IMG/VR virus record: IMGVR_UViG_3300009031_000221
Span: 96,001 to 160,000 of that record
Source of the DNA: a virus
Taxonomy: Duplodnaviria > Caudoviricetes
Length of the DNA: 64,000 bases
Reading direction: 5' to 3' (one strand)
Below are positions 17,078 through 55,524 of this stretch, one piece after another. Numbering within the stretch: the stretch's first letter is position 1; each line of letters starts with the position of its first letter. Below the pieces are notes generated by a model. That model ran no database searches. It was given only the letters and a program-made list of their open reading frames with translations, and was not told the origin of the DNA. The position numbers and the translations under genes were made by a program.

Positions 17078-17089
17078 ATCCCGGCACTC

Positions 17090-40103: not shown

Positions 40104-40118
40104 TATAAGGAAGCTAAC
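40104..40118 (-). promoter_or_regulatory. Putative late promoter GTTAG-cttc-CTTATA
   Basis: Recurring motif; upstream of 40054. Confidence 0.55.
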
Positions 40119-41061
40119 GAGCCTCTACAATTGACGGGCGCCCCACCTTCCGTTCATGCTTGATATCCAATTTGACCATCCACCGATCTATCGTAGCTTG
40201 TCCGACACCCAATCGTTCAGCCATTGTACGGATAGGCATGTTATCCGCCGCCATTTTCGCCAATACCTCAGGCGTTACTTTCTGCCGAATATCATAATGA
40301 GGCCCTTGGAACCCAAAAGGCCCAAGCTTGTATGCCATGCACTCGGGGACATGCGGCTTGATCAATTCGATGAATCTATCCGCCGTGTCCTCCCGTTCCA
40401 TATGAAACTGTCCAGTGTTCCTGACCTTCAATTGCCAACGAGGTTTCAAACCGAACTTCTCAAATATCGACCACGCTACTTCCCTACTAGCATCATCAGC
40501 CCCAAATGTAATCCCAGGCCACCACCCGGCATAACCGTCATCCAAATACCATATAGCCAATGCGAACTCGTCAACCTTGTCCACAATCTGGGGAACCAAC
40601 CGTTTCCAACCCTTGTGTTGGTCGACATAGAACATTTCTTGCCATTCATTTAGGGAATCATGAGCACAAGTGAACATGCCCACTTGAGTGAATCCGCGTT
40701 GATCTGGGACATCCACCACGGGATTCGCCCAAGGCCCCCACAAGGCAGCCTTCCATTCCAGATAGGGGCGTTGTGCCCCGCAATGTCTTTCTGAGTAATG
40801 AGTGGCATTGACTCGACGTACTAGCCTGCCGTCCCCTAACATAGAACCGACCAATAATGATTGGAGCCGCCCTTCTATCGGAGTGACCTCATTCCTTGCC
40901 CATCGGGGCAATGTTTCAATGCCATAACGCTTCCGCCATGACATCACCCGTTTGGGTGACCCCTCTAATACACGGGATGCGATTTCGGCATCCGTCAATT
41001 TGAGGTCGTGTACCAAGTGCCGAAGTTCAATTGCTGTCATGGGACATGGAATCGTTTTCAT
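40114..41061 (-). CDS. Free-standing LAGLIDADG-type endonuclease with flanking HTH domains
   Basis: LLVGSMLGDGRL and LAIWYLDDG motifs of LAGLIDADG_2-type proteins. Confidence 0.85.
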   Translation of the reverse strand: MKTIPCPMTAIELRHLVHDLKLTDAEIASRVLEGSPKRVMSWRKRYGIETLPRWARNEVTPIEGRLQSLLVGSMLGDGRLVRRVNATHYSERHCGAQRPYLEWKAALWGPWANPVVDVPDQRGFTQVGMFTCAHDSLNEWQEMFYVDQHKGWKRLVPQIVDKVDEFALAIWYLDDGYAGWWPGITFGADDASREVAWSIFEKFGLKPRWQLKVRNTGQFHMEREDTADRFIELIKPHVPECMAYKLGPFGFQGPHYDIRQKVTPEVLAKMAADNMPIRTMAERLGVGQATIDRWMVKLDIKHERKVGRPSIVEAR

Positions 41062-41110
41062 AGGAATCAGTGTATTCGATAATTCCCCGAAATGCAAGCA
41101 TCCAAAACGC

Positions 41111-41186: not shown

Positions 41187-42062
41187 TTAGCGAGTGATCG
41201 TCAGACGTGCCAAACCACGAGGGTTGAACGCGCCAATACCCAAATTTTCGAATACTGAGAAGCCAATGGTACGTGCCTTGGGATCGTCAGCCGAAAGAAC
41301 CGTCAACTCAGTACGTACCGGAATACGTCCAAAGTGCTCAGGCTCGCAGCAAACGTACACCGTGCCAACAGGAACCAAACGGCTCGTGATGACAGATGCG
41401 CCCCACAGGGTGGCCATCAAGCCCGTCTTCAGCAAGGTTGCCTGAGACTCGATATCCAAGATATCGCGTCCAAACTTCCTCAAGTCCGCATAATCGCGGG
41501 CGTTCATGTAAATACGTGCTACACGCAAGTCATGACGCTCGATCAATGCGAATGCATCAGCGAGAACCGCACCCGAGATGGGGGCGACTACCGGGATGTC
41601 CGGGTTCAACTGCGCCGAGAGGGAGTCGAAGCCCGCCGTGGCGATAGAGTCCAGGATTGCGAACACACGCTCGTCTTCAGCTGCCTGAATCTGAGCACGG
41701 GCCAAGTCCTGGGCACGTTCGATCAAGTCGAACCTACGTTCCTTGATTTGCGTCAAAGGAATTTCGGGATTCGATGCGATCTCGAACAACGGAAAAATGA
41801 CACGCCTTGGCTTCGTGATAGCCAAGATGTTCTGACCTTCTTCACCGACCACGTACGCCGTAACGTCCGGGTCTTTATCGTAAATCGGGAGAGCGCCGTC
41901 AGGAAGCTGCTCTACCAAAAAGGTTTTCCGCCCAACAGCGGCATAATCGCGACGGGTACGCAGGGGCTGCGTCATGCTGGCTGCCAGCTTGACACGACCT
42001 GCAGGCGTCTTGATGTATTCGCCGATGATCTTCTGCTTGATTGCGTTGTTTACAGTACTCAT
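41187..42062 (-). CDS. Major capsid protein (HK97-fold)
   Basis: Last gene of the protease-scaffold-decoration-MCP block, with a strong terminator; IPLFEI...AQIQAAEDERVF...RIYMNARDYADLRK...LWGASVITS pattern. Confidence 0.88.
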   Translation of the reverse strand: MSTVNNAIKQKIIGEYIKTPAGRVKLAASMTQPLRTRRDYAAVGRKTFLVEQLPDGALPIYDKDPDVTAYVVGEEGQNILAITKPRRVIFPLFEIASNPEIPLTQIKERRFDLIERAQDLARAQIQAAEDERVFAILDSIATAGFDSLSAQLNPDIPVVAPISGAVLADAFALIERHDLRVARIYMNARDYADLRKFGRDILDIESQATLLKTGLMATLWGASVITSRLVPVGTVYVCCEPEHFGRIPVRTELTVLSADDPKARTIGFSVFENLGIGAFNPRGLARLTITR

Positions 42063-42905: not shown

Positions 42906-42920
42906 CATAAGCAAACAACC
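42906..42920 (-). promoter_or_regulatory. Putative late promoter GGTTG-tttg-CTTATG for the decoration-MCP operon
   Basis: Recurring motif, just after the scaffold terminators. Confidence 0.5.
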
Positions 42921-42942
42921 GAAACAAAATGCCCAAAAACGA

Positions 42943-43021: not shown

Positions 43022-44776
43022 TTAGCCGTTGAAAACCTTGGAGACATCAGGTGCCGATTCCCACAAACGGGAGAGTTCGTCAACTTCACCGCCAGCCGAA
43101 GCCGTACGGGTCAATCCACCCACAGTGCGAACGCCGGTCGAAGCCTTGCGGGGCTGCGGACGCTGCGATGCAAGGCGCATGGCCTTCTTTGCAGCAGGGG
43201 AAGCATCCTCGTCTTCGCCTTCATCCTCATCCTCAGACTTCTTGGCCTTCTTGGATGCAACAGGAGCTTCCTCCTCTTCATCCTCATCCTCAGCCTCATC
43301 TTCCTCGGCGCCATCATCCTCATCCTCGTCCTCAGACTTCTTGGCCTTCTTGGATGCAACAGGAGCTTCCTCCTCTTCATCCTCATCCTCAGCCTTAGCG
43401 GACTTGCCGCCGAAGATCGATGCCAACAGCGCTTCGTCATCGTCGCCGAGAACGTCATCGCTACCGTCCGCGAGGCCCATCGGGTCTCCCGTCATGCCGA
43501 ACATACCGGCATCATCACCGCAAGCCTTCTTGCCTGCAGTAGGAGCATCCTCCTCATCTTCTTCATCCTCGGCCTCTGCCTTCTTCGCCTTCTTTCCGCC
43601 CTTCTTAGCTGCAACGGGAGCTTCCTCCTCATCTTCTTCAGCCTCAGCCTTCTTGGACGCAACAGGAGCTTCCTCTTCAGGTTCCGCCTTCTTGGCCTTG
43701 AGTGCCTTGAGCTTGGCAGCCTTCATGAAGGTAGCTTCCATCTCGGAAAGCATTGCAGCCTCAGCGGGATCAAGTCCAGCTACGGTTGTAACAGCCGCTA
43801 CGACAGGCTCAGGGGACAACGCATCAATAACTTCTTCCGAAGCCAGGATACCATCACGGTCAGTATCCAGGGCAGCGAACAGATCCTGCGATCCAACCCA
43901 CTCCGCCTGCATTACAAATCCGTCATTGTCCGTATCCATCGAAGCGAAGAACTTGCGTGCAGCCTTGCGAGCGGCAGCTTCCTTCTTTTCCTCGGGCTTG
44001 TCTTCGGGCTTGACTTCGGGTTCATCCTCGCCTTCGGCCTTCTTGGCTTCCTTGCGGGCTGCATCCTCATCCTTGGCCTTGGGGGCCAACGTCGGACCCT
44101 TGGGGTCATTCTGGTCAGCCTTCTTGAGGCTTTGTACCTTCTCGGTCAAAGCCGAAAGGGCACCCAGAACCTCGTCCATTTCAGACTTCTTTCCAGCATC
44201 AGGGGCTTCCTCAGCCAACATCATGTCCAGATCGTCATCATCCATATCGCCAAAGTCATTGGCAGGACCACCGAAATCATCAAAGTCGGGTTCGCCAAAA
44301 TCAGCCTGAGGAGCCATTTCCTCAGCCAAGAATCCTCCACCGATACGCTCCAATGTTGCATTGATGCGGGAATCCGACCAATCCATCATATCGAGCGCTT
44401 GATTTTCAACTGTATCGGATGAAGCCTTCTTGCCAAGCATGGCGCGAGCAATGCGAATGCACTTCTGTGCCTTGCGCTCCACGGCTGCACGCAAACTACG
44501 TGCTTCCTTGGGGACGCGGGGCTGCTCCTTGTGGGCAGGGTGATCCTGATCTTCCGTATCGTAGCCAGGAATGGCCGGGGGGTTACCCTGGGCATACGGG
44601 GGCTTCCGAACGTCCTCAGCCCATGCTGAAGGATCGCCTTTCTTGTAGGCCTCATAGGCAGGATCTGCCTGATGGGCGGGGTGGTCTTGATCCTCAGTAC
44701 CGTAACCGGGGATCTGGGGGGCGGCAGACGCCGAACGTCCTGCCGCCCACGTCATGCGATTCCTATTGGTGCTCAT
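43022..44776 (-). CDS. Capsid scaffolding protein (acidic, low-complexity, EF-hand pair)
   Basis: Between protease and decoration/MCP; very rich in E/D/K/A; TGATG coupling to the protease stop. Confidence 0.75.
   Translation of the reverse strand: MSTNRNRMTWAAGRSASAAPQIPGYGTEDQDHPAHQADPAYEAYKKGDPSAWAEDVRKPPYAQGNPPAIPGYDTEDQDHPAHKEQPRVPKEARSLRAAVERKAQKCIRIARAMLGKKASSDTVENQALDMMDWSDSRINATLERIGGGFLAEEMAPQADFGEPDFDDFGGPANDFGDMDDDDLDMMLAEEAPDAGKKSEMDEVLGALSALTEKVQSLKKADQNDPKGPTLAPKAKDEDAARKEAKKAEGEDEPEVKPEDKPEEKKEAAARKAARKFFASMDTDNDGFVMQAEWVGSQDLFAALDTDRDGILASEEVIDALSPEPVVAAVTTVAGLDPAEAAMLSEMEATFMKAAKLKALKAKKAEPEEEAPVASKKAEAEEDEEEAPVAAKKGGKKAKKAEAEDEEDEEDAPTAGKKACGDDAGMFGMTGDPMGLADGSDDVLGDDDEALLASIFGGKSAKAEDEDEEEEAPVASKKAKKSEDEDEDDGAEEDEAEDEDEEEEAPVASKKAKKSEDEDEGEDEDASPAAKKAMRLASQRPQPRKASTGVRTVGGLTRTASAGGEVDELSRLWESAPDVSKVFNG
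43231..43394. repeat. Perfect 65-bp direct repeat (43231-43295, 43330-43394) in the scaffold gene
   Basis: Encodes a duplicated AEDEDEEEEAPVASKKAKKSE unit. Confidence 0.85.
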
Positions 44777-46299
44777 CACTTTTCTCCTCGCTGTGGCGAC
44801 TGCCTGGTATTTCCAGCCTTTCCCGAAGTACATCCCCGTGAAAGAAGTTTGCCAAGACGAATTAACGTCTTAGCCTCATCCATGTTGGGTTCGCGTCCCA
44901 TTGCCAGGCGGCAGGCATGAATGAAGGAATTAGCAGAACCATACCTATTGGAACCACCGACCTGCAGTGCAGTGCGATAAATTCCAACGGGGACAGTAAT
45001 GCCGATTTGCTGATTGAACACCGCCACGCGGTTGATCAGGTCAGCGTCAGATGATGCAGTACGGACAATATCGTCCAATCCTGCCTGATATGCTTTGCGT
45101 GCCATTGAGGCTTGCTTATTGAGCGTCTCGTTGGTGCTGCTATTTCCAGGGGCTGGCGGGGCCAAATCCTTCTGGAGACGATCCTGCACTCGAGTAATAA
45201 GATGGTTGTAAACCGCGTCCTCTACATCCTTGAATGGAGTGGGCGGCGCTACAGGTGCTGCCGGGGCTACTGGAGCCGGGGCCTCAGGGGCTCCGTCCTC
45301 ATCTTCCCATCCAGCAAAGAAATCATCGGATGCATCCACATTGATTCTGCCCGTACGTGCCGGGGGTCCAACACGGGATACTATCACCGCATCAACAGGG
45401 GTAGATGCCGCCTTGAGGCGATCATCCTTCGTCCACTGAGGAGGAGGAGTTGACAAAACCTTCTTAGCCTTCTTCGCAGTCTCAGGGCTAAACTCTAGAA
45501 CGTTCCGAAGCACTGCCCCAGTAAATGCAGGCGTGCCAACCCAGGATGCTTCAATAAACTGTACGCCGCCTGTTGGTCCTAATGACTCATGGCCACACAG
45601 TTCCGCAATACGATGCTTGTTGCCATTCTCGTCAAAGAACGTGTTACCCTTGGCATATTTGATGTGAGGGCACATCTCCGTTTCATCAGCAGCCCAATGT
45701 CCACACTTGGTGCAAATAGTCCCGTCAACAGTGCAGCCCATTGATAGGGTGCCCATTTTTCCGGACTCAATAGCCTTGACCAAATCTTCATGCTTGCGAT
45801 CCGTGGCAATCAGGATATCCACATAGATGGAATCCCCAATGTCACGTGCCACGGCATCAATGATTCTGCCCTTGGACAATTCTTCTACTTGGACGTGTTC
45901 AACGAAATTATGCCCGCCAACGAATGTTTGGTAGGAAGACATCAATACAGGGCGATTCCAACAATCCATGTTGTTATTGATGAATTGATCACTCGCAGGC
46001 TTAACACGGAAATCGCTAAACTTCCGATTAACCCGGAACCCATCCTCCATTACGGAGCCCGTTTTGATTCCCTGGGGTGAATAGGTATCTACCGACGCAA
46101 TAATTGTGGCATGCGTTAGGAGATAATTATTCGGATTGAATGTCTCACCGAAAAATTCAGATGCCCGATCTACAAGGGATCCGCTTAGATCCCCTTCAAC
46201 CTTGGCGTCTTTGCTTCCAGCTGTCCGGATGTTACTCCATTCAGTTTGGGAAACGTGTGGGCGAACTACCTGAGCACAGGCGTACTTCATGAATGCCAT
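44776..46299 (-). CDS. Prohead maturation protease
   Basis: NFVEHVQ...KGRIIDAV...LSMGC.V...CTKCGH...FIEASWVGTPAF, typical of large-phage prohead proteases; lies upstream of the scaffold. Confidence 0.82.
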   Translation of the reverse strand: MAFMKYACAQVVRPHVSQTEWSNIRTAGSKDAKVEGDLSGSLVDRASEFFGETFNPNNYLLTHATIIASVDTYSPQGIKTGSVMEDGFRVNRKFSDFRVKPASDQFINNNMDCWNRPVLMSSYQTFVGGHNFVEHVQVEELSKGRIIDAVARDIGDSIYVDILIATDRKHEDLVKAIESGKMGTLSMGCTVDGTICTKCGHWAADETEMCPHIKYAKGNTFFDENGNKHRIAELCGHESLGPTGGVQFIEASWVGTPAFTGAVLRNVLEFSPETAKKAKKVLSTPPPQWTKDDRLKAASTPVDAVIVSRVGPPARTGRINVDASDDFFAGWEDEDGAPEAPAPVAPAAPVAPPTPFKDVEDAVYNHLITRVQDRLQKDLAPPAPGNSSTNETLNKQASMARKAYQAGLDDIVRTASSDADLINRVAVFNQQIGITVPVGIYRTALQVGGSNRYGSANSFIHACRLAMGREPNMDEAKTLIRLGKLLSRGCTSGKAGNTRQSPQRGEK

Positions 46300-46302
46300 G
46301 AT

Positions 46303-46923
46303 TCAGCCCTCCAATCCGATTTCATCGGTCTCAGGTTCCGAGTAATCTGAGTGCCCTATGATGTCACAGGGCTTGATCAAGAACAGGCACTCAGGGCAAG
46401 CTAGAAGCCGAACGTTTGCCCCGCCCTCTCGTTTGTACGAAGCAGGGCGCAGAAAAACAGTCTTGCAACGAGGGCAATTGAAATTGCCGCTATCGACTTC
46501 TTCCTGTGTTGCCTTGTGCTTCCGATCACGGGCTGCCCAGTACATCGCCTGTTTGACGAATGCCTGGGCAACCCGGTCGGAAGAACCTCTTTTAGGAAGC
46601 GGAGCTTGTGGGTAGGGGTCATTAGGCCCGCCATCTACAGGAACCGTTCCCGCACCACCAGGAATATTGTCATGGCCCATATTGGAAGGATTGTAATCGC
46701 CTGCTTGGTTGAAGTACTGCTGTACATCCTCAACAGGAACTCGTTCCGATCCATGGGGCCACTCAACATCAATCATGCCAATTGCGGGATAGACAGCCAT
46801 TACACGGCCGTTCAACCCTTCATTCCCGAGAACAAATGGATATACGATATCGCCAACAGCAAACTCGGAAGCCCGCTGCTGGTAATCGACGTACGCCGCT
46901 ATTTTGTTCCGTGAATTGGTCAT
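46303..46923 (-). CDS. Head-associated protein (SH3-like barrel + C-terminal Zn ribbon)
   Basis: FAVGDIVY...GRVMAV...IDVEW; CPRC...CPEC; RVAQAFVKQA motif. Confidence 0.65.
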   Translation of the reverse strand: MTNSRNKIAAYVDYQQRASEFAVGDIVYPFVLGNEGLNGRVMAVYPAIGMIDVEWPHGSERVPVEDVQQYFNQAGDYNPSNMGHDNIPGGAGTVPVDGGPNDPYPQAPLPKRGSSDRVAQAFVKQAMYWAARDRKHKATQEEVDSGNFNCPRCKTVFLRPASYKREGGANVRLLACPECLFLIKPCDIIGHSDYSEPETDEIGLEG

Positions 46924-46938
46924 GTATAATTGCCTCAA

Positions 46939-47970: not shown

Positions 47971-50900
47971 TCACCTCTGTTGTCTCATCCAGGTCATTCG
48001 TACTCGACCTTGATATTGTGAGGTTTTACCTGGAGAAGACCCTGAGGAATCTGCACCCCCCATTATCGCCCCCATACTCTCCATAAACTCATCTGGAGTC
48101 ATGTCCTTCATGCGCTCCCGAGTTTCTGGCTTTGCGTGCTCAAGAAAGTCCCTCATCAACTCGGCGGGGGATTTATCCTTGATTTTGTCTTTGTTGGCAG
48201 CGTGGAATTCCTCAATAGCGGATTTGTCTGCCGGGTGTACCTTCGGTATGGCAGGAGGCTCATCATCTTCAGGTGCTTCCTCAGGTTCTGCCTTCACGTA
48301 CTTCTTATCCAGTTCCCCAACATCCCCGGTTTCAATAACACGCCGCATCTGTACTACCGATGGGTCATCATCCGGTGGATCCCAACCTTCTGCTTTCATC
48401 GCTTCCATCTGGGCTTTCAGATATGCTACACGGGCTATTGGCCCCTTTGTATCCTTGCACGCCTGCATAGCGGCAACGTCACTTCCTGAATCCCTTAGGC
48501 ACTTCGTCATCTCATCGGCAGCCTTGATATATTCAGGGGAACTAGATGCCTTGTCATGAACACGGGCGTTCAATGCTTCCATCTCTTTGGGGCTAATCTT
48601 CTTGCGAGCCTTGGCACCGGATTCGGGCTTCGCTTCTTCACCCTTGTCCTCACCCTCTCCCCCTTCCGATATATCAAATCCGGCTTGTAGGGACGCATGA
48701 CTGGTAGTCATATTGTCAACAGCCATGTCGTTGAGGAAATTCTTGAGGACTTCCTTTGCTTCCTTGGACACGTCCCCACTATTGAGTGCCCGAAACATCG
48801 GATCTTCCTTGGCGAACCCGTGTACAACAGCGATGTCCTTATCCTTCATTGAATCAAGGGCTTTCCTAATGCGTTCTCGTGAATCTGGGCTATAAAAGTT
48901 GTCAGGACTGCCCAACAATAAATCGGCTGAACCCTTGTCTATCATAGCCTTGGCTAATGCTACGTACTGCCGGGAAGGGCTAGGCTGTAGGGGTTTCCCA
49001 TCAACCATAATGGGTTTATCCCCATTGGCAATTGCCGCTAGATTCAATCCACTTAGGACACTTTTCAATTCCGAATGTAGAGGGGAACCCGGTTTGGCCT
49101 TGGCTATCTCCGCTACAACATGCTGTGTTGCCGCATCCCGTTCCTTTGAATCTATATCACCACTCATGTATTGCTTGTATGCAGTGGTAGCACGGGCATT
49201 CAACTGATCTGGACTCTTCGGTTCATTATTCGCATCCTGTCCCCCAATGTTCACGGGACCAGAACGAACTACGGGAGGCTTCTTATCTTTGGGGGCCTTT
49301 TCCGCCGGCGTTGCTGGAGGCGTAGCCGCAGGAGGCGTTGGCGCCGCTGGCGCTGCCGCAGGAGGCGTTGGCGCTGCCGCAGGAGGCGTTGGCGCCGCTG
49401 GCGCTGCTGCAGGCGGGGCGGGAACCTCAGGGGCGGGAGTTGCCGCCGGTGCTTCTGTAGATCCTGGCGCCTTCGCAAGATCCCGGATGCCGGAAAGGGA
49501 ATCGTTGCGAAGTTTTTCAGCCGCATCCATCATAGTTTGTGATTCAGCCTTCGCCTTGTCACTCTTAGAGTTTTCCATTGCCTTAGATGCGAGCCGCAAA
49601 TCCGTAGTAGATTTGTTGAAATCCTTTACGGCTTTATCCAATGCGGGCTTATGCTTAGCGAGTTCGGGATCGGACTCATACATAGCATCAAGATCCTTCA
49701 TGATGCCCCGTATATTCTTGCTATTCCCTTCCTCTAAAGCCTTTGCCAAATTGTCAATATGCTCCCCATGCTTCTTAGCAGGATCCTCTGTGGGTGCCTT
49801 CGCACCGCCCTCGCCTTTGTCCTCGCCGGTACCCTCAGCAGTCTCACCCTTGGCATAAGCCTCTGCCTGTTCCTTTTCCTCAAATGTCTCCCGGTCACCA
49901 TCGGGGTTCTTAGCAGCCCAACCTTTATCGGTTTGCCACACTTCCCCAGGTTTATGTTCAGGTTCATCAGTCTTGGGCGTATCAGGGCCTTCTGGACCCT
50001 TTGGACCTTCTGGCCCCTTTGGACCTGTGGGTCCAGGAGGTGCTGGGGGCACTGCAGACCCTTTACTCAACACCCACTGATATGCTACACGCTTGTAATT
50101 CAAAGATAGATCAGGATCATCCTCAGCCCCACCATCAGCTACGGATGGTTTATCCGGGTCTACTCGGTGATTCCGAAGATCCTGACGTGGGGGCTTCGAC
50201 TTTGGGGCGGGACGGATATTGGCATTCGCCGCATCATCCTCCCTCTCCGCATGCGTCTTGGTAGCTACACGTGCCATCCCCGTTGCAGGATCCAGTGATT
50301 CTAAGCACTGATCACATACACCCGTCACAGACAATCGATCCGAATGCAACCACTTAGGGCATCGGCACTGAATCACATTCCCACAGTAATGACATTCCAA
50401 TCGGAAATGGCCAATACCCGACGCATGAATAGCCTTCAGCGTATGCCCTTTACGAATGAATTGAGCCAACAAGGCCCTGTTAATATCAAATGCGGCTTTG
50501 GAGAAACCCTTCTTTTCAAAGGACTCCGATACATTTCCATCCTTGAGGTATTCATCCTCAAGCCCCGGCACAAGATATTGGCTTCGCAACGTGGCAGATT
50601 CGTGTCCTACAGCTTCAGCCGTTTCATCCAATGCCGTCTTAAACTCACCCTTGAGTTTCTTTTCACGTTCCTTCTTATCGGTTGGGAGCTTTCCCCCCTT
50701 GGAACGGACGGCCTTGAGGCGTTCCTGCATTTCCGTATTAGCGTGAAACCCTCGAATGTCCTTGGCGGATATATCGAAAGGCTTCAGGTAAACGTTCACA
50801 TCCTCCGCAGTGATACGGCAATCCTCACCCTCACATAGTGGGGAGTCCTCGCCCTTACCCTTCGTGGCATCCTTCAAGGCTTTGACTAATACTGCGTCTT

Positions 50901-53367
50901 TCACTTCCTTAACATGATCCACACCCGACTTGCCAACATACTTAACGGTTGCCTTGCCCCCAGAAAACGTAACATGCTTCTTACGCCAACCGGTAACCCC
51001 GAAATGCCCTTCCTTGGCGGATTCATCATTGCCAACACGCTCGAAGGTTTCATCCATCAACCCGACAGCCAATGCCGTGTACCGAATCTTTTCATCATCA
51101 GACTTCAGGTCTTTGCGATACTGCGCCCGTAGTTTATCGATATGCCCTCGGAGCTTTTCAATTTGCCCCGCCTTGTCCTTGTTACGATCCGCAATCTGAC
51201 GGTCACTATACTCATAGACGATCATATCTTCGCCGTCTTTGGTCTTGACCTTCTTCTTGTCCTGGTATTTGGCAGCTACTCGACGTGCAGCCATCAATCG
51301 AATGTATTCCGGAGTGTGCCCCACCAAACCTTCCTTACCATCAGCTAATAGCTCAATATCCCCCGCAATTGGGGGCTTTGGGGGTGCCTTGTCTTCCCGA
51401 ATCTTGAATAGGTTGACAACTTGTTTCTTTCCGGTAGGAGTTTCGATTAGAACTGTTGGGTCGCCCTTCTCGCTAACCCCGAAGTCCCTGATTAGCCCAT
51501 GCTTATTCTTGTATTTTCCGAACAGAACAGGATCCCCTTCGTTGACATTGAATACTTTTGCGATATGCACAGGCTGTTCCATGTATCGATTCGCAACTCG
51601 AACTTCTATGGACAATGCAGTCTTCCCCCTACGAGCCATCTCCACATGAATTCGGTTTTCCCACCTTGAAGCGGAAGTAGCCAGTACGGGGTCATCAAGC
51701 AATACCGTCCGTGCGGTATCCATTAATGTACGAATCTCCGCACCCTTGAGTTCGTATTTACGAATCTGTCCGGGCATATCGATAACTTTGCCCGGTTGCT
51801 CCAGGACATCTACAAATGCCTCGCCCTCTTCAGCACCCATCTGAACCGTGATTTCCCGAACGCGATCCTTCTGGGCGGGTGTCAAGAACCCCAAGCGCCT
51901 GCCCACGGGCATACCCAAATCCATCAAGTCAAACAGGAATGCCAAATCCCCCTTTCGTTCCGCCCAGTTTGCCAATGCCTCACGGAAGGGTTTATCCGAC
52001 TGTGCAATGGACTTGACAACATCCAGCAATCCTAGTTTGTCCATTTCCAACAATGCACGTTTGCCAACCCCTGTTTCATAGAACAAGGTGATGATCATAT
52101 TAGACAAATGCCCGCCAGGAATATTGCGGAGCTTGTCCTTGTTCTTCTTGATGGATGCTTCAACCTCGGGATCGATCTTGAATCCATATTTCAACAGGAA
52201 CTTGATAGCCCGAATCATCCGGCTGGGGTCATCCGAGAATGTCTGGTCGGGGCTAGAAGGGCAACGCATTACCCCTTCCTGAAGATCCTTCAGGCCACAA
52301 CCCGTCAAGTCCAGGATTTCCGCTTTATCCGGCCCATCCGCCAAGTCATGCATTCTCCACAATAGAGTGTTGAATGTGAATTCACGACGAAATGTGTCAT
52401 CCTTGATATTGGCTGGGGCGACTGCATCAGGCTTATAGCCTCCCGCATAGGATTCAGTACGGGCATTTGCAATCTCAATGACCTCACCCGATAGATTCTG
52501 TCCCCCGACTTCCCAATCACCTTTGATGGTGAGGATTGCCACCCCATAGTTATTGGTTGTCAAGTTCGTGTCAGTTGGGATTGCCCGCTGCAACTGCTTG
52601 GCAAACCATTCCGAATCCTTACCCTTTAGTGCTACCGAATCAATGACGACATCGATGTCCTTGATAGGTTCCTTGATGATGAAATTACGTACAGCCCCAC
52701 CAACAACGTAGACATGCTTGGATACGCCCAGCTTTGTAGCCACGTTGGACAGGAACTTCATTAGTTCTACAGATACCTGATGTTGCATGGCGTCTACAAT
52801 ACGGGAGGCCATTCGGGTAGGATTCCCAAATTCCACTACATGAACCTTGGGCAAACCCCATATCTCGATGCCATCGAACGTCCAATCCCCCTGCGGAAGG
52901 ATCCCATCAAATTCGGTTTCCAGGCCGTCTAGGTATGCCAAGGTGACGTGCGGGGAGTAGACCAGGGGAAAGTAGTCATCTACATCAAATCCGGCGCCCA
53001 TGAGGGCATCCCGGAGTTTCCACCGCAATGCAGCCAAGTCATGGCTGTACCGAACTCGCATAATCGCGACTCGCCGTTCCTTGTCGGGTTGTGCAAAATA
53101 GTCTGGCCCATATACATGGGCTTTCACACCACCCCGAATTTCAGCCAATACACGAGATGAAATATCCAGGAATTCGGATTCCCGTTCCTTGGATACGGTG
53201 CCTACATACAGGAATGTTGTATGTGGGACGGATTGATCCTCGGACCCAAGATCAGGAAACTGATCCCCCAATTCTTTGGATAGAGGGATGAAGAACCCTA
53301 CACCTGTGCCGTCACCGGTTTTCTTACCGTCAGACGCACCCGCGTATTTATTCCAAGCTGTGATCAC
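47971..53367 (-). CDS. Multi-enzyme polyprotein: 2H phosphoesterase + class II tRNA nucleotidyltransferase/poly(A) polymerase + KOW/SH3 + DNA topoisomerase IB + Zn finger + low-complexity tail
   Basis: PHTT/PHVT (two HxT motifs); VVGGAVRN..KDIDVV..RREFTFN..DDPSRMIRAIKF; ERVGN..YVGKSG..KDIR..VGH..SQY (the five TopIB catalytic residues). Confidence 0.9.
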   Translation of the reverse strand: MITAWNKYAGASDGKKTGDGTGVGFFIPLSKELGDQFPDLGSEDQSVPHTTFLYVGTVSKERESEFLDISSRVLAEIRGGVKAHVYGPDYFAQPDKERRVAIMRVRYSHDLAALRWKLRDALMGAGFDVDDYFPLVYSPHVTLAYLDGLETEFDGILPQGDWTFDGIEIWGLPKVHVVEFGNPTRMASRIVDAMQHQVSVELMKFLSNVATKLGVSKHVYVVGGAVRNFIIKEPIKDIDVVIDSVALKGKDSEWFAKQLQRAIPTDTNLTTNNYGVAILTIKGDWEVGGQNLSGEVIEIANARTESYAGGYKPDAVAPANIKDDTFRREFTFNTLLWRMHDLADGPDKAEILDLTGCGLKDLQEGVMRCPSSPDQTFSDDPSRMIRAIKFLLKYGFKIDPEVEASIKKNKDKLRNIPGGHLSNMIITLFYETGVGKRALLEMDKLGLLDVVKSIAQSDKPFREALANWAERKGDLAFLFDLMDLGMPVGRRLGFLTPAQKDRVREITVQMGAEEGEAFVDVLEQPGKVIDMPGQIRKYELKGAEIRTLMDTARTVLLDDPVLATSASRWENRIHVEMARRGKTALSIEVRVANRYMEQPVHIAKVFNVNEGDPVLFGKYKNKHGLIRDFGVSEKGDPTVLIETPTGKKQVVNLFKIREDKAPPKPPIAGDIELLADGKEGLVGHTPEYIRLMAARRVAAKYQDKKKVKTKDGEDMIVYEYSDRQIADRNKDKAGQIEKLRGHIDKLRAQYRKDLKSDDEKIRYTALAVGLMDETFERVGNDESAKEGHFGVTGWRKKHVTFSGGKATVKYVGKSGVDHVKEVKDAVLVKALKDATKGKGEDSPLCEGEDCRITAEDVNVYLKPFDISAKDIRGFHANTEMQERLKAVRSKGGKLPTDKKEREKKLKGEFKTALDETAEAVGHESATLRSQYLVPGLEDEYLKDGNVSESFEKKGFSKAAFDINRALLAQFIRKGHTLKAIHASGIGHFRLECHYCGNVIQCRCPKWLHSDRLSVTGVCDQCLESLDPATGMARVATKTHAEREDDAANANIRPAPKSKPPRQDLRNHRVDPDKPSVADGGAEDDPDLSLNYKRVAYQWVLSKGSAVPPAPPGPTGPKGPEGPKGPEGPDTPKTDEPEHKPGEVWQTDKGWAAKNPDGDRETFEEKEQAEAYAKGETAEGTGEDKGEGGAKAPTEDPAKKHGEHIDNLAKALEEGNSKNIRGIMKDLDAMYESDPELAKHKPALDKAVKDFNKSTTDLRLASKAMENSKSDKAKAESQTMMDAAEKLRNDSLSGIRDLAKAPGSTEAPAATPAPEVPAPPAAAPAAPTPPAAAPTPPAAAPAAPTPPAATPPATPAEKAPKDKKPPVVRSGPVNIGGQDANNEPKSPDQLNARATTAYKQYMSGDIDSKERDAATQHVVAEIAKAKPGSPLHSELKSVLSGLNLAAIANGDKPIMVDGKPLQPSPSRQYVALAKAMIDKGSADLLLGSPDNFYSPDSRERIRKALDSMKDKDIAVVHGFAKEDPMFRALNSGDVSKEAKEVLKNFLNDMAVDNMTTSHASLQAGFDISEGGEGEDKGEEAKPESGAKARKKISPKEMEALNARVHDKASSSPEYIKAADEMTKCLRDSGSDVAAMQACKDTKGPIARVAYLKAQMEAMKAEGWDPPDDDPSVVQMRRVIETGDVGELDKKYVKAEPEEAPEDDEPPAIPKVHPADKSAIEEFHAANKDKIKDKSPAELMRDFLEHAKPETRERMKDMTPDEFMESMGAIMGGADSSGSSPGKTSQYQGRVRMTWMRQQR

Positions 53368-53411
53368 AGGAGACCTCCCTAGGGGAGTCCAATAGACTTA
53401 GAACCGAAGTT

Positions 53412-55106
53412 CTAGAACCGTTCCGTGCCCTCGGCAGGCGGCTTCTTGTACTTCAGGCCCAAGTTCCCCGCGACCTTCTCTGTGATCTCGGTCGATTCAA
53501 CCAGAGCTTCACCAACACGGCTGTATGCCGCACGGACAACTTCATTCATCGAGGAGTCACTCAATGTAAACAAGTCGTTCTTCAACCCTTCGGCTGCCGT
53601 CACAGGATCGATGTTCAGCAGATCCAAAATGACATCGATTGGAATCGAACCCTTCTGGTACAGGCTGAATAGTGCATCATAGGTGTCCGCCGTATCCCGA
53701 AGCGCCAACCGTGTAAACGTCAGCTTCGGAACAATGACCTCAAGGATCCCATCTTCATCTTCTTCAACGAACCCCATGCGAGCGCACATTGGTTTGAAGA
53801 AGTATTCCTCAACTAGATCCTGCAGCATTTCGCGAAGTAGCATAAATCTAGTGTTGATAACCTCGAGGTGAATACGATCGCCGGAGTATGATGATTCACC
53901 GGATAGCAAACTCTCCGTCACACCTAGACCGGCATACAACTGCCTATCCGTCAAGTCATAAACCCATGACCAGTCAGGCAACCGTTGATCCGCACCCATT
54001 TCCTCCCAGTTGACCTGGAAGTTGGTGATGATCGAGTAATCAGGGTCTTGCAATGCAAGGTCAACCTGTTCACGCAAAGCGTCCGTCTGCTCATCAGACA
54101 TGTCCTCAGCATAGATCAATCGATAGGGCGTCATGTGACGCGACGCAATGCTAGTCAAAGACTGGCGAACCTTGTCCCGGAATACCAATGTCCGGAGGCA
54201 TCGCTGAAGGATGGACTTGCCACGCGGCTCATAAGGGCTCCGCTTGCGAGCCATGAAGTGACAGAAACTGCCTGCTTCGGGATCAGTATTCAGTGGGACA
54301 TTCCGCCCTTCAGCTACAGCCTCCACAATTTCAATCGGCATCGAGTTGGCAATACGCTGTGCTTGAGCATCCCCTTGACGGGCGCGCTCAATAATAGCCT
54401 TGGTCTTGGAGTCGGGCACTAGCTCAATGAGCTTCTCGTCCGTGAATGGGAATGACTCAACACGCACTTGCTCAGGGGGCAAGCATCGAATAGCTGTCCA
54501 ACCCTTGTAATTCTGATTGAGCCACTTGATCTCGCGTTCATCTGCATCCTCGAAGGGTTCCCAACGCTCGAGGAATTTCCCGTCAGCTGTGATTTCCCGA
54601 ATGGCTTGTTCCCGTACTTCACGGGGCATATCAGGATTGGTGTCCTCGATGAACAGCGCAACCTCACCAATCAGGTTCCACTCGTGAGTGACTTCCATGA
54701 GGCGACGTAGGAGCCCTACCTTCTTTGCCCACTTGGTGCAGAATCGCATTGACTTCTCAGCCAATTCCCGATTCCGTGCATCAGGCATGCCAACCCGAAC
54801 CTTGGACAACGGAAGCTCTGTGTGCAAGTCAATCGCCTGCCCAACAAAGGGTTCGTAGTCATAGAAGAATCGGTAGTAGTTATGTTGTTCGTCAACAGAC
54901 TGCGGTAGCTCGAGGAAGTCCGTCGATAGTTCAGGTGAGTAGAAATTACCGCCTGAACCAGCCTGGACACCGCCTGCCATCGGGAATGCGACTTTTGCCC
55001 GCATCGCTGTGGTGATGACTTTGCCGGGTTTGCCGACTGAAACACCAGGGCGTTGAGGGACAACCGCTACTTTGACGGTTTCATCAGGATTATTCTTGCG
55101 AGCCAT
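53412..55106 (-). CDS. Portal protein
   Basis: Downstream of TerL; FVGQAIDLHTELP...PPEQV...RGKSILQRCL...GVTESLLSG pattern of large-phage portals. Confidence 0.85.
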   Translation of the reverse strand: MARKNNPDETVKVAVVPQRPGVSVGKPGKVITTAMRAKVAFPMAGGVQAGSGGNFYSPELSTDFLELPQSVDEQHNYYRFFYDYEPFVGQAIDLHTELPLSKVRVGMPDARNRELAEKSMRFCTKWAKKVGLLRRLMEVTHEWNLIGEVALFIEDTNPDMPREVREQAIREITADGKFLERWEPFEDADEREIKWLNQNYKGWTAIRCLPPEQVRVESFPFTDEKLIELVPDSKTKAIIERARQGDAQAQRIANSMPIEIVEAVAEGRNVPLNTDPEAGSFCHFMARKRSPYEPRGKSILQRCLRTLVFRDKVRQSLTSIASRHMTPYRLIYAEDMSDEQTDALREQVDLALQDPDYSIITNFQVNWEEMGADQRLPDWSWVYDLTDRQLYAGLGVTESLLSGESSYSGDRIHLEVINTRFMLLREMLQDLVEEYFFKPMCARMGFVEEDEDGILEVIVPKLTFTRLALRDTADTYDALFSLYQKGSIPIDVILDLLNIDPVTAAEGLKNDLFTLSDSSMNEVVRAAYSRVGEALVESTEITEKVAGNLGLKYKKPPAEGTERF

Positions 55107-55524
55107 AAATGCCTCTTGCTGCAATCAGCTTCTTCTTAGCTTCATCGGCAGTTCGTTTTGCTTCCCGCGATGCACGGAATGCTTTCAATCGATCGGAGTC
55201 CGAATATTCGGAACCCACACGTTCATTCAAAGGAACCACAGGTCTAATAGATGCAATCCTACCTAGGCATTGATCAATGATCCCCTGCGTATCCTTAGCA
55301 CGGCGCAATCCCGATGATTCCGATCCATTACGGCGCCCTTCCGAAGCCATTTTCGAACATATATCCGCAGCGTGGCGAAGGGACTTTTCGGCATCCCGCA
55401 AATGCTTTCGCATTTCGATTTCTGCCAACCGAATCTGGTTCTCGTGTTGTTCCTGCTGCCTAGTCTGTTGATCAGCTTTCGCTTTATCTTGTGCTTCTTG
55501 ACGTGATGTCACTTTGCACCCCAT
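55090..55524 (-). CDS. Hypothetical coiled-coil protein
   Basis: Operon-packed between TerL and portal. Confidence 0.6.
   Translation of the reverse strand: MGCKVTSRQEAQDKAKADQQTRQQEQHENQIRLAEIEMRKHLRDAEKSLRHAADICSKMASEGRRNGSESSGLRRAKDTQGIIDQCLGRIASIRPVVPLNERVGSEYSDSDRLKAFRASREAKRTADEAKKKLIAARGIYGSQE

What the first reader, a model, noticed from the sequence alone, without database searches (positions are those of the whole stretch)
47971..53367. Head-operon polyprotein joining a 2H phosphoesterase, a CCA-adding-type enzyme and topoisomerase IB: candidate virion-delivered counter-defence/RNA-repair kit
Seen: one 1798-aa ORF between portal and the protease block, with its own late-type promoter. 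It carries intact-looking catalytic motifs for a 2H phosphoesterase (aa ~20-180), a class II nucleotidyltransferase (aa ~195-580; RREFTFN and DDPSR are variants of RRDFTIN and EDxxR) and TopIB (aa ~700-950). The domains are separated by KTA/RVANRY/RRVAAKY-type linkers. Established: T4 Acb1 is a 2H enzyme that destroys CBASS cyclic nucleotides, and LigT-type 2H enzymes open 2',3'-cyclic phosphates. CCA enzymes rebuild tRNA 3' ends. MuF-type polyvalent proteins sit at this genomic position and are thought to be injected. Inference: the protein is packaged, cut by the prohead protease and ejected, so signal degradation or tRNA end repair and DNA relaxation act before any phage gene is expressed. 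No MuF domain was recognised.
Basis: partly seen in the sequence, partly recalled or inferred. Interest (0 to 1): 0.88.

Follow-up and report, generated by a model that had tools for sequence, protein, structure and literature searches.

The report
Huge-phage head protein carrying three enzymes
A 1,798-residue protein encoded right after the portal gene of a 536-kb groundwater phage joins a cyclic-phosphate esterase, the phage's only CCA-type tRNA nucleotidyltransferase and a poxvirus-like topoisomerase IB; the parts are separated by a short address-like motif that also marks about fifteen other proteins of this phage, which suggests but does not prove that these enzymes are loaded into the capsid and delivered with the DNA.

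Summary
Window 47971-53367 (-) is one open 1798-aa frame (GTG start, GGAGG 6 nt upstream) between portal and prohead protease. It carries a LigT-type 2H phosphoesterase, a class II (CCA/poly(A)-type) nucleotidyltransferase and a poxvirus/bacterial-type TopIB. Every catalytic residue checked is invariant across relatives. It is not an assembly artefact.

It belongs to a large, uncultivated huge-phage family (>120 proteins of 1,000-3,100 aa; 172 IMG/VR loci). TopIB is the common core. Accessory modules vary: 2H, CCA-type NTase, RNA ligase, HAD_SAK, cREC, ART-PolyVal, InPase, NUDIX, inteins. A family-specific helical C-terminal domain has no fold match. The position after the portal (the MuF slot) is conserved, but no MuF domain was detected by sequence.

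It also lies near the termini of about 15 unrelated proteins of this phage.

Best reading: a polyvalent, probably capsid-loaded enzyme kit. TopIB would relax DNA, and 2H plus NTase would heal or rebuild tRNA 3' ends. Packaging, cleavage and ejection remain inference. An Acb1-like anti-CBASS role found no support. Other first-stage notes of this scan saw the same motif and TopIB fusions on other DNA.

The parts
47971..53367 (-). Whole ORF, 1798 aa (P0001), GTG start
   Evidence: 100% match as a single open frame in the 536-kb genome record
53392..53408 (-). Promoter-like motif TTCGGT-N7-CTAT in the 44-nt portal/ORF spacer
   Evidence: sequence; 8 minus-strand copies in the genome vs about 0.65 expected; other copies precede the p234/MCP genes and tagged genes. 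Function untested.
53374..53378 (-). Shine-Dalgarno GGAGG, 6 nt before the GTG
52828..53310 (-). 2H phosphoesterase, LigT type (aa ~20-180; HxT at 49-51 and 140-142)
   Evidence: Pfam PF13563; profile hits LigT structures 1vdx, 5h7e, 1iuh; H/T invariant 33/33
52795..52815 (-). Degenerate tag RMASRIV (aa 185-191) after the 2H domain
   Evidence: weak in P0001 (3.5 bits); relatives carry a canonical RVAxR[YF] at the same place
51613..52755 (-). Class II nucleotidyltransferase (CCA-adding / poly(A) polymerase type), head, neck and body, aa ~205-585
   Evidence: best PDB matches are tRNA nucleotidyltransferases and PAP; motif residues invariant 47/47; only PF01743 match in the genome
51580..51600 (-). 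Tag RVANRYM (aa 590-596)
   Evidence: about 18-20 bits
51382..51570 (-). Small conserved beta-rich domain (aa ~600-662), SH3/KOW-like by sequence pattern only
   Evidence: present in 57 of 120 relatives, usually just upstream of TopIB and often preceded by a tag; no significant PDB sequence match; fold not modelled
51262..51282 (-). Tag RVAAKYQ (aa 696-702), always about 30 aa before the TopIB Pfam envelope
   Evidence: 27-28 bits, best in the genome; helix of moderate confidence in the AF2 model
50518..51261 (-). Topoisomerase IB catalytic domain (aa ~703-950; R777 K813 R872 H922 Y931), preceded only by a beta-hairpin instead of a full N-terminal domain
   Evidence: AF2 model pLDDT >90 over the core; Foldseek best hit variola TopIB, E 2.6e-13
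50305..50394 (-). Cys-rich zinc-ribbon-like segment (aa 992-1021)
   Evidence: CxxC...CxC...CxxC pattern; the close relative P0002 carries PF13240; low model confidence
50071..50271 (-). Conserved post-TopIB segment (aa 1033-1099), from RVATKTH to LSLNYK-RVAYQWV (tag at aa 1093-1099)
   Evidence: conserved in 78 of 120 relatives; tag 15 bits; short helix in the model
49984..50034 (-). Collagen-like G-P-x repeats (aa 1112-1128); explains weak PHROG tail-fibre hits
49291..49470 (-). Pro/Ala-rich repeat spacer (aa 1300-1359); contigs of public runs break here
48268..49269 (-). Family-specific all-helical C-terminal domain (aa ~1367-1700), possible anchor
   Evidence: AF2 pLDDT 86.9, pTM 0.81; no significant fold match; 183 cluster representatives among 1.84 billion proteins
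53412..55124 (-). Context: portal protein
   Evidence: phrog_16240 E 1e-28; weak Portal_Mu
44776..46299 (-). Context: prohead protease-like protein
   Evidence: phrog_18299 E 1e-13
46303..46938 (-). Context: conserved 211-aa head-module protein with an internal tag-like RVAQAFVKQAMYWA and a zinc ribbon
   Evidence: the motif variant is conserved in three other phages
41187..42062 (-). Context: major head protein (291 aa)
   Evidence: phrog_2522 E 1e-48

Best explanation
P0001 is a huge-phage version of a polyvalent head-module protein. It is a string of independent enzyme modules made with the head proteins and most likely loaded into the procapsid, so that the enzymes are present when the DNA enters the next cell.

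Shown:
(1) It has three catalytically intact-looking modules: a LigT-type 2H phosphoesterase, a class II CCA-type nucleotidyltransferase and a poxvirus/bacterial-type TopIB. It also has a family-specific helical C-terminal domain.
(2) The gene keeps the MuF-like slot directly after the portal in most relatives.
(3) Relatives keep TopIB and exchange the accessory modules, mostly RNA end-healing and sealing enzymes plus polyvalent-protein hallmarks.
(4) Modules are separated by a short helical motif, RVAxR(Y/W). The same motif sits at the N- or C-terminus of about 15 unrelated proteins of this phage.

Inferred:
(a) The motif, perhaps together with the C-terminal domain, is an address or docking peptide that brings the modules into the assembling head.
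(b) TopIB relaxes the 536-kb genome during or after delivery, as poxvirus virion TopIB is held to do for early transcription.
(c) The 2H domain opens 2',3'-cyclic phosphate ends and the NTase rebuilds or adds CCA. This would serve tRNAs clipped by host nucleases and the phage's own 46 CCA-less tRNA genes. The pairing is functionally analogous to the HD-plus-NTase arrangement of E. coli Cca.
(d) Whether the chain is cut into pieces is open.
For: - Domains and residues.
- Family: 123 homologues of 1,010-3,129 aa with TopIB plus variable PolyA_pol, 2H, RNA_ligase, HAD_SAK_1, cREC_REC, ART-PolyVal, InPase, NUDIX, PAP2, GNAT and inteins. 172 related IMG/VR stretches lie on contigs up to 619 kb.
- Synteny: TerL, portal, [TopIB protein], p320, p211, protease, p603, p234, MCP in 57 of 80 loci. 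In 6 more, TopIB lies between TerL and portal.
- Motif in the family: 206 copies of R[VI]A..[YWF] vs about 11 expected. It lies outside the Pfam envelopes.
- Motif in this genome: 17 hits at 14 bits or more vs 0 in shuffled ORFs, mostly near termini of unrelated proteins (ART-PolyVal, DnaJ, ferritin-like DUF5856, SWIM). A weaker copy lies near the C-terminus of the UvrD helicase.
- Motif in related loci: 160 vs 2 in 67 unique loci.
- Gene fission and fusion: in L020 the 2H module is a separate 212-aa gene that ends with the tag and overlaps the TopIB gene start.
- Shared promoter-like motif with the MCP operon and several tagged genes.
- P0001 holds the only PF01743, PF01028 and PF13563 matches in the genome. 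ARAGORN finds 68 tRNA genes, 46 without CCA.
- The polyvalent-protein concept and the injection prediction come from PMC5512222.
Against: - There is no direct evidence of virion association. No cultured relative exists and no proteome is available.
- No MuF, portal-fusion or zincin domain, which anchor classical polyvalent proteins.
- The one complex prediction (major head protein plus tag peptide) gave no answer.
- 17 of 80 related loci show TopIB with no recognisable head genes within 10 kb.
- Tagged genes are scattered over the genome, not confined to the head module.
- A sole CCA-type enzyme needed for 46 tRNAs might be expected to act in the cytoplasm throughout infection, which does not need packaging.
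Confidence: 0.6

Rival explanations
1. Polyprotein reading: the RVAxRY linkers are prohead-protease cleavage sites. The chain is packaged, cut into free 2H, NTase and TopIB enzymes, and ejected.
For: The motif sits at every module junction of P0001, in degenerate form after the 2H domain. The gene lies two genes upstream of the protease. N-terminal tags 5-25 residues from the start resemble T4 capsid-targeting sequences, which end in a protease site (established knowledge; T4 and SPN3US literature listed).
Against: In stand-alone proteins the motif is often only 2-14 residues from the stop codon, where cutting would achieve little. No matching motif was found in the major head protein, portal or protease, the usual substrates. 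No conserved residue pattern typical of a scissile bond flanks the motif. The motif is predicted helical, whereas protease sites are usually extended.
Confidence: 0.2
2. Assembly or packaging helper, not cargo. TopIB works at the portal/terminase during packaging of the 536-kb genome to release torsional stress. The tags recruit enzymes to the assembly site or to another phage hub, and nothing is injected.
For: TopIB is the invariant core and always sits next to portal and terminase genes. In 6 loci it lies directly between TerL and portal. Tagged proteins include cytoplasm-type enzymes (DnaJ, and more weakly the UvrD helicase).
Against: This does not explain why RNA-repair, ART-PolyVal and InPase modules, typical of injected polyvalent proteins, are fused to it (PMC5512222). 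No precedent of a TopIB packaging factor was found in the literature searches.
Confidence: 0.15
3. Anti-signalling reading: the 2H domain is an Acb1-like nuclease that destroys CBASS or other cyclic-oligonucleotide signals, rather than an RNA end-healing enzyme.
For: 2H enzymes include T4 Acb1 (established knowledge). Iyer et al. proposed anti-signalling or RNase roles for 2H domains of polyvalent proteins.
Against: The family profile matches only LigT-type 2',3'-cyclic phosphodiesterase / 2'-5' ligase structures (E 2e-4 to 1e-3) and no Acb1 entry. tblastn against 50,697 phage records finds one relative, also inside a polyvalent protein, and no Acb1 gene. In the family the 2H module co-occurs with NTase, RNA ligase, HAD_SAK_1 and cREC modules.
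Confidence: 0.1
4. Artefact: the fusion results from mis-assembly, a sequencing frameshift or read-through of separate genes.
For: Contigs of public runs break inside the Pro/Ala-rich repeat at 49327-49407. In some relatives the modules are separate genes.
Against: The 2H-NTase-TopIB part lies on a single contig in each of four runs with zero differences, at depth up to about 240. The same order recurs in 17 homologues from other samples. Relatives join TopIB and the C-terminal domain in one protein.
Confidence: 0.02

Closest known systems
Polyvalent proteins of phages and conjugative elements (Iyer, Burroughs, Anand, de Souza, Aravind 2017, PMC5512222)
   Same: Many unrelated enzymatic domains sit in one very long polypeptide, encoded beside the portal in the head module and predicted to travel with the DNA. 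Relatives of P0001 carry the hallmark ART-PolyVal and InPase domains.
   Different: No MuF, portal-fusion or zincin peptidase domain. In that paper 'topoisomerase' occurs once, in the reference list, and 'CCA' not at all; it states that polyvalent 2H domains were never seen with RNA ligases. In this family 2H, RNA ligase, HAD_SAK_1 and cREC all occur with TopIB. The RVAxRY junction motif is absent from a polyvalent protein of another lineage (Rctr197k_173).
Poxvirus virion topoisomerase IB (vaccinia/variola; PDB 2h7g, 2h7f, 3igc)
   Same: Best structural match of the TopIB module (Foldseek E 2.6e-13, TM by target 0.65). Same R-K-R-H-Y pentad. The poxvirus enzyme is packaged in the virion core and aids early transcription (established knowledge, not tested here).
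   Different: About 20% identity. Here the N-terminal DNA-binding domain is reduced to a beta-hairpin in the model. The enzyme is embedded in a 1798-aa chain, and its presence in a virion is not shown.
T4 internal proteins and Alt with capsid-targeting sequences; phiKZ/SPN3US ejection proteins
   Same: Enzymes and internal proteins are loaded into the prohead through short terminal signals and delivered with the DNA. ART-type enzymes are among the cargo. The literature is listed.
   Different: The T4 signal is N-terminal only and ends in an L/I-x-E cleavage site. Here the motif is RVAxR(Y/W), occurs at either terminus or internally, and has no evident cleavage signature.
Encapsulin cargo-loading peptides
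   Same: Short terminal peptides on unrelated enzymes, including ferritin-like proteins, would address them to the inside of an HK97-fold shell (established knowledge). Here the tag sits on a ferritin-like DUF5856 protein among others.
   Different: The sequence is unrelated. Binding to the 291-aa major head protein is not shown (one search gave no answer). The analogy is functional only.
E. coli Cca (class II CCA-adding enzyme with an HD phosphohydrolase domain)
   Same: It couples a class II NTase to an activity that removes 2',3'-cyclic or terminal phosphates, so that damaged tRNA 3' ends can be rebuilt (established knowledge). The NTase motifs are conserved.
   Different: The healing domain here is a 2H LigT-type fold, not HD. 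Motif variants are RRE for RRD and DDPSR for EDxxR. Specificity (CCA, A or poly(A)) is unknown.
Virus Rctr197k protein Rctr197k_173 (GenBank KX853510.1, annotated hypothetical)
   Same: Nearest deposited relative of the 2H module (34% identity over 97% of the domain). It is also a 2039-aa multi-domain protein: InPase, DUF5661, DUF7178, 2H.
   Different: No TopIB, no class II NTase, no RVAxRY motif.

Membership tests
Type IB topoisomerase (poxvirus/bacterial type) | Catalytic pentad Arg-Lys-Arg-His/Asn-Tyr in order | tested here: met
   R777, K813, R872, H922, Y931 align to Deinococcus TopIB and are invariant in 110-111 of 111 family members
Type IB topoisomerase (poxvirus/bacterial type) | Pfam Topoisom_I above the curated cut-off, and the TopIB catalytic fold | tested here: met
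   90.6 bits vs cut-off 23.7; Foldseek variola TopIB E 2.6e-13, Deinococcus TopIB E 6e-12
Type IB topoisomerase (poxvirus/bacterial type) | N-terminal beta-sheet DNA-binding domain | tested here: inconclusive
   The model shows only a two-strand hairpin (aa ~703-719) before the catalytic domain. The separate small beta domain at aa 600-662 was not modelled.
Class II nucleotidyltransferase (CCA-adding enzyme / poly(A) polymerase) | Head-domain motifs GGxVRD, DxD, RRD, EDxxR; Pfam PolyA_pol above cut-off | tested here: met
   57.4 bits vs cut-off 23. GGAVRN, D237-x-D239, RRE, DDPSR are present, with the key residues invariant 47/47. Best PDB matches are tRNA nucleotidyltransferases.
Class II nucleotidyltransferase (CCA-adding enzyme / poly(A) polymerase) | CCA-adding rather than A-adding or poly(A) specificity | not testable with these tools
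   PDB matches mix CCA enzymes and poly(A) polymerases at similar E-values. Indirect pointer only: it is the sole such enzyme in a genome with 46 CCA-less tRNA genes.
2H phosphoesterase, LigT clade | Two H-x-T/S motifs in a LigT-like domain | tested here: met
   H49-T-T51 and H140-V-T142 are invariant 33/33. PF13563 scores 29.8 bits, over the cut-off, in the domain-level search. The profile hits LigT structures 2fyh, 1vdx, 5h7e, 1iuh.
Acb1-type anti-CBASS 2H nuclease | Detectable sequence relationship to Acb1 | tested here: not met
   No Acb1 entry among the PDB profile hits at E up to 10. No Acb1-bearing phage among tblastn hits at E up to 0.01. Structure was not compared.
Polyvalent proteins (Iyer et al. 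2017) | Two or more domains of disparate biochemistry in one polypeptide of a phage or plasmid | tested here: met
   2H + NTase + TopIB + further modules. Relatives have up to 6-7 Pfam families per protein.
Polyvalent proteins (Iyer et al. 2017) | Head-morphogenesis context next to the portal | tested here: met
Polyvalent proteins (Iyer et al. 2017) | Anchor or processing domains typical of the class (MuF, portal fusion, zincin peptidase) | tested here: not met
   None in P0001. No PF04233 in the whole genome. The C-terminal domain matches no known fold.
Polyvalent proteins (Iyer et al. 2017) | Delivery into the host cell with the DNA | not testable with these tools
   No cultured relative and no virion proteome
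MuF / SPP1 gp7 head morphogenesis protein | Phage_Mu_F domain | tested here: not met
   Only the gene position after a weakly Mu-like portal is shared.
Capsid-targeting / cargo-loading peptide systems (T4 CTS, encapsulin CLP) | Short terminal peptide shared by unrelated cargo proteins | tested here: met
   Of 14 hits at 14 bits or more outside P0001, 6 are C-terminal, 4 N-terminal and 4 internal, on non-homologous proteins
Capsid-targeting / cargo-loading peptide systems (T4 CTS, encapsulin CLP) | Peptide binds a shell or scaffold protein and causes encapsidation | tested here: inconclusive
   The predicted complex of the major head protein with aa 668-712 gave no answer. Other candidate receptors were not tested.

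The most novel reading that the evidence does not exclude
RVAxR(Y/W) is a capsid cargo-address peptide used by a whole clade of uncultivated huge phages. Any protein that carries it at a terminus, or any module flanked by it in a giant fusion, would be loaded into the prohead. P0001 would then be a concatenated, multiply addressed cargo. The virion-delivered proteome of these phages (TopIB, tRNA 3'-end repair enzymes, ADP-ribosyltransferase, ferritin-like protein, helicase and others) could be read from sequence alone. This would be a phage counterpart of encapsulin cargo-loading peptides and of the T4 capsid-targeting sequence, with a topoisomerase IB delivered as in poxviruses.
Probability: 0.4. 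Interest if true: 0.85.

Novelty: new variant of a known kind. Interest (0 to 1): 0.7.

Why it matters
If the reading holds, four things follow.

1. Tailed phages with half-megabase genomes would deliver a type IB topoisomerase with their DNA. That would converge on poxviruses and suggest how very large genomes become transcription-ready on entry.

2. The polyvalent-protein idea would extend to true RNA-repair kits (cyclic-phosphate opening, CCA rebuilding, ligation). The original survey had argued against this for 2H domains.

3. The RVAxRY motif would give a sequence-only way to list the injected or encapsidated proteins of phages that cannot be cultured. It would also give a handle for loading foreign proteins into large capsids.

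4. The phage's only CCA-type enzyme sits in a head-module protein, although 46 of its 68 tRNA genes lack an encoded CCA. This links virion cargo to the translation takeover typical of huge phages.

All three enzyme activities and the tag-dependent loading can be tested with recombinant proteins, without the phage.

Tried and rejected
- Megablast of the gene against 50,697 phage records: no match.
- tblastn of the whole protein: only domain-level hits, mostly stand-alone tRNA nucleotidyltransferases of other huge phages.
- Sigma-70 promoter and terminator scan: not above shuffles.
- A 20-nt probe from the spacer: unique in the window.
- 8- to 10-mers of the spacer: only mildly enriched. TCTATTGG is not a shared element.
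- A relaxed promoter scan was noisy and is not used.
- MuF: no PF04233 match in the genome.
- C-terminal domain: no PDB sequence match. No significant Foldseek match in PDB or BFVD. VIA-align best Z 7.8, on generic helical bundles. ESM Atlas TM at most 0.36.
- Complex prediction of the major head protein with the tag peptide (aa 668-712): verdict 'no answer', score 0.00. This is neither for nor against binding.
- PHROGs on ten tagged proteins: nothing.
- Small beta domain against PDB sequences: nothing significant.
- Acb1 relationship: not found.
- My quick regex for TopIB under-counted it in new C-domain proteins. An HMM corrected this: 24 of 26 proteins of 1600 aa or more carry TopIB.
- Literature searches for TopIB or polyvalent proteins in huge or jumbo phages found no description of this family. 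The library misses most subscription journals.


Full report
**1. What is there**

The window is bases 96001-160000 of a 536,053-bp IMG/VR virus record judged complete. Four public groundwater metagenome runs of one study hold it. On the minus strand, 47971-53367 is a single ORF of 1798 codons with a GTG start. GGAGG lies 6 nt upstream, and a 44-nt spacer separates it from the portal stop codon.

PHROGs and Pfam identify the neighbours:
- large terminase, 55771-57732
- portal, 53412-55124, weakly Mu-like
- two unannotated proteins of 320 and 211 aa
- a prohead protease-like protein, 44776-46299
- a very acidic 603-aa protein with EF-hands
- a 234-aa protein
- a 291-aa major head protein, 41187-42062

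**2. Domains and catalytic residues**

Pfam finds Topoisom_I (aa 727-926, E 1.2e-25), PolyA_pol head (aa 219-368, E 2.4e-15), a weak PolyA_pol RNA-binding match, and 2_5_RNA_ligase2 (aa 46-151). The last is just under the cut-off in the whole-protein scan but over it (29.8 bits) in the domain-level genome search. PHROGs calls the middle part a tRNA nucleotidyltransferase.

*TopIB.* Against solved structures it aligns to Deinococcus, variola and human enzymes. An AlphaFold model built on 52 relatives is confident over the catalytic core. Its best Foldseek match is variola TopIB (E 2.6e-13). Only a beta-hairpin precedes the catalytic domain in the model, so the usual N-terminal domain seems reduced.

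*NTase.* It aligns to CCA-adding enzymes and poly(A) polymerases alike.

*2H.* A 33-sequence profile of the 2H module hits LigT-type 2',3'-cyclic phosphodiesterase / 2'-5' ligase structures and nothing Acb1-like.

In alignments of the family every residue I checked is invariant:
- 2H: H49, T51, H140, T142 (33/33)
- NTase: G223, G224, R227, D237, D239, R327, R328, N333, D380, R383 (47/47)
- TopIB: R777, K813, R872, Y931 (111/111) and H922 (110/111)

That is the signature of enzymes kept active by selection.

**3. The rest of the chain**

After the NTase comes a small beta-rich domain (aa ~600-662), found in 57 of 120 relatives and usually just before TopIB. After TopIB come:
- a Cys-rich zinc-ribbon-like segment
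- a conserved stretch ending in LSLNYK-RVAYQW
- collagen-like GPx repeats, which explain the weak tail-fibre PHROG hits
- a Pro/Ala-rich spacer
- a conserved C-terminal domain (aa ~1367-1700)

The C-terminal domain folds confidently as an all-helical structure (pLDDT 86.9, pTM 0.81). It has no significant match in PDB, BFVD, the ESM Atlas or a Foldseek-independent search. A profile search of 1.84 billion cluster representatives finds only 183 proteins with it. It lies nearly always at the C-terminal end of long proteins, and 24 of 26 of those of 1600 aa or more also carry TopIB. No MuF domain exists in the protein or anywhere in the genome.

**4. Is the fusion real?**

In each of four runs one contig covers 49378-53900, from the portal end through TopIB, with no differences and at depth up to about 240. 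Contigs break only inside the Pro/Ala repeat (49327-49407), where short overlapping pieces bridge. These runs may be the source of the record, so they are not fully independent. However, the same module order (2H, NTase, small domain, TopIB, post-TopIB segment, mostly followed by the C-terminal domain) occurs in 17 homologues from other samples, and permuted orders occur in others. An assembly artefact is very unlikely.

**5. The family and its context**

A search of 5.8 billion proteins returns 123 relatives of 1,010-3,129 aa. All come from metagenomes and many from contigs of 200-620 kb. TopIB is the shared core (110 of 120). The accessory modules vary: PolyA_pol (54), 2H (32), RNA_ligase, HAD_SAK_1, cREC_REC, tRNA_lig_CPD, InPase, ART-PolyVal, DUF5661, NUDIX, PAP2, GNAT, GGACT/ChaC, a carboxypeptidase-like domain, and inteins.

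IMG/VR holds 172 related stretches. In 57 of the 80 fetched loci the order is TerL, portal, [TopIB protein], p320, p211, protease, p603, p234, MCP, as in this window. In 6 loci a short TopIB lies between TerL and portal. In 17 loci no head gene was recognisable within 10 kb.

The slot can hold a minimal 508-aa TopIB, as in LR745208.1. That is the only GenBank phage record with this TopIB. The 2H module can also be split off as its own gene that overlaps the TopIB start (L020).

This is the behaviour Iyer et al. (2017, PMC5512222) described for polyvalent proteins. In that paper, however, 'topoisomerase' occurs only once, in the reference list, and 'CCA' not at all. It also states that polyvalent 2H domains were never seen with RNA ligases. 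I found no paper that describes the present family.

**6. The linkers are a real motif**

RVA-type strings recur in P0001. In the 121 family proteins R[VI]A..[YWF] occurs 206 times against about 11 expected, in 103 of the 121 proteins and up to five times per protein. The consensus is (A-rich)-R-V-A-(A/S)-R-(Y/W/F)-(L/K/Q).

The copies lie outside Pfam envelopes, between modules or at the ends. One always lies about 30 residues before TopIB, and one follows LSLNYK.

P0001 has canonical copies at aa 590, 696 and 1093. A degenerate RMASRI lies at aa 185, where relatives have a canonical copy. So every module junction is marked. In the model the copies at 696 and 1093 form short helices within low- to moderate-confidence linkers.

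A position matrix built from the relatives finds 17 sites of 14 bits or more in this genome's ORFs, against none in shuffled ORFs. Besides P0001 they lie in non-homologous proteins:
- an ART-PolyVal protein (N-terminal)
- a DnaJ-domain protein (N-terminal, 12 bits)
- a ferritin-like DUF5856 protein (last eight residues; found by pattern only)
- a SWIM-finger protein
- an intein-bearing UvrD helicase (C-terminal, 12 bits)
- a run of small ORFs at 506-508 kb

Of the 14 sites of 14 bits or more outside P0001, six are within 25 residues of the stop codon, four within 25 of the frame start, and four are internal.

In 67 unique related loci there are 160 sites against 2 in shuffles. They include the C-terminus of the split-off 2H gene and of the minimal TopIB. 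A polyvalent protein of an unrelated phage (Rctr197k_173) has none.

I found the motif independently. Afterwards I saw that other first-stage notes of this scan had remarked an 'RVAARY' motif or 'cargo tag' next to TopIB on other genomes. Those notes are unchecked and do not count as support.

**7. Regulation**

There is no sigma-70-like promoter. Following a lead from another first-stage note, I tested TTCGGT-N7-YTAT. It has eight copies on the minus strand against about 0.65 expected. One lies 41 nt before the P0001 start. Others lie before the p234/MCP genes and before three tagged genes. This fits co-expression of P0001, head proteins and tagged proteins. The motif's function and timing are unproven.

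**8. What the RNA modules may be for**

ARAGORN finds 68 tRNA genes in the genome, and by my end check 46 lack an encoded CCA. P0001 carries the genome's only class II NTase, its only TopIB and its only PF13563-type 2H domain. Two stand-alone RNA ligases lie elsewhere and are untagged.

A LigT-type 2H enzyme opens 2',3'-cyclic phosphates left by metal-independent tRNA nucleases. A class II NTase restores the CCA end. E. coli Cca pairs the same NTase with an HD phosphohydrolase for this purpose (established knowledge). The most economical reading is therefore healing and (re)building of tRNA 3' ends, for damaged host or phage tRNAs and for the phage's own CCA-less tRNAs. An additional phosphatase step may be needed and was not identified. 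CCA versus A or poly(A) specificity cannot be read from sequence.

**9. Mechanism, with odds**

Shown: the architecture, intact catalytic sites, conserved portal-adjacent position, modular exchange, and a clade-wide junction and terminal motif.

Inferred:

| Claim | Odds |
|---|---|
| The protein is loaded into the procapsid and enters the cell with the DNA | about 0.55-0.6 |
| The motif is an address or docking helix rather than a cleavage site | about 0.5 vs 0.2 |
| TopIB relaxes the incoming or packaged genome | about 0.5 |
| 2H plus NTase act on tRNA 3' ends | about 0.6 |

The main arguments for a docking role are the motif's position a few residues from either terminus of stand-alone proteins, and its helical propensity. 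Three findings argue against cleavage: no conserved scissile-bond pattern flanks the motif; no strong copy (the 14-bit threshold used throughout) occurs in the portal, the protease or the head protein; and the single RVA string inside the head protein (RVARIY, 6.2 bits) lies within the folded domain and looks like chance. A conserved tag-like string inside the 211-aa head-module protein (RVAxA(F/Y)xKxAxYWA) and the frequent pairing of tags with the small beta domain hint at where a receptor or self-association might lie. I could not test this.

**10. Comparison, novelty, verdict**

The protein works like a polyvalent protein and shares that class's context. It lacks the class's usual anchors, so I file it as a new variant rather than a plain member. 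Its TopIB is a bona fide type IB enzyme, closest in fold to the poxvirus virion enzyme. Its 2H is LigT-like, not Acb1-like.

The counter-defence/RNA-repair kit idea gains support from the family's module repertoire. Packaging, protease processing and ejection remain untested, and the anti-CBASS suggestion has no support. Interest is high but limited by the absence of any cultured relative: 0.7.

Noticed in passing
G000 genome-wide; in the window at 27920-29761(-), 29765-30196(-), 61332-62003(-), 15281-17089(-): The RVAxR(Y/W) motif sits near the termini of about 15 unrelated proteins. These include SWIM-finger, ART-PolyVal, DnaJ, ferritin-like DUF5856 and UvrD-with-intein proteins, and a run of small ORFs at G000 506.2-508.4 kb. 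17 sites of 14 bits or more vs 0 in shuffles.
   Followed up: partly
window 53392-53408(-), 42907-42923(-), 33391-33407(-); G000 161777, 193826, 207908, 466907, 532681: Strand-specific motif TTCGGT-N7-YTAT, usually followed by a CCCC..TAG-like element. 8 copies vs about 0.65 expected. It precedes head genes and several tagged genes, so it is a candidate phage promoter class.
   Followed up: partly
window 43022-44833(-): A 603-aa head-module protein after the protease is extremely acidic (pI 4.4), repetitive (EEEAPVASKKAKK units) and carries two EF-hand calcium-binding motifs. This is unusual for a scaffold or internal head protein. Homologues keep this position in relatives.
   Followed up: no
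window 46303-46938(-): A conserved 211-aa protein before the protease combines an SH3-like N-terminal part, an internal tag-like helix (RVAQAFVKQAMYWA, conserved in three other phages) and a C-terminal CxxC...CxxC zinc ribbon.
   Followed up: partly
G000 208343-259393 and 483473-483562: ARAGORN predicts 68 tRNA genes in three arrays, 46 of them without an encoded CCA. It also predicts a putative suppressor tRNA with anticodon TTA (483473-483562) and an odd tRNA with a four-base anticodon call (213498-213586).
   Followed up: partly
window 40114-41097(-): A LAGLIDADG/HNH homing-endonuclease-like ORF lies directly downstream of the major head protein gene. Inteins interrupt portal, protease and the TopIB protein in relatives (L019, L020; P0010, P0012).
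   Followed up: no
window 15281-17089(-): Phage-encoded RNB (RNase II/R-type) exoribonuclease fused to a dsRNA-binding motif (RNB E 1.5e-55, dsrm E 5e-16), with a moderate tag-like site near its N-terminus.
   Followed up: no
L106 3787-9906 (GenBank KX853510.1, Rctr197k_173): A protein annotated 'hypothetical' in a 197-kb phage is a 2039-aa polyvalent protein (InPase, DUF5661, three DUF7178 stretches, 2H). It lies after a 549-aa protein that may be the portal.
   Followed up: partly
L041, L055, L056, L061, L075, L077; L086, L090: Other clades carry minimal TopIB proteins (about 300-400 aa). They lie either directly between TerL and portal or in clusters of small tagged genes with no recognisable head genes nearby.
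   Followed up: partly
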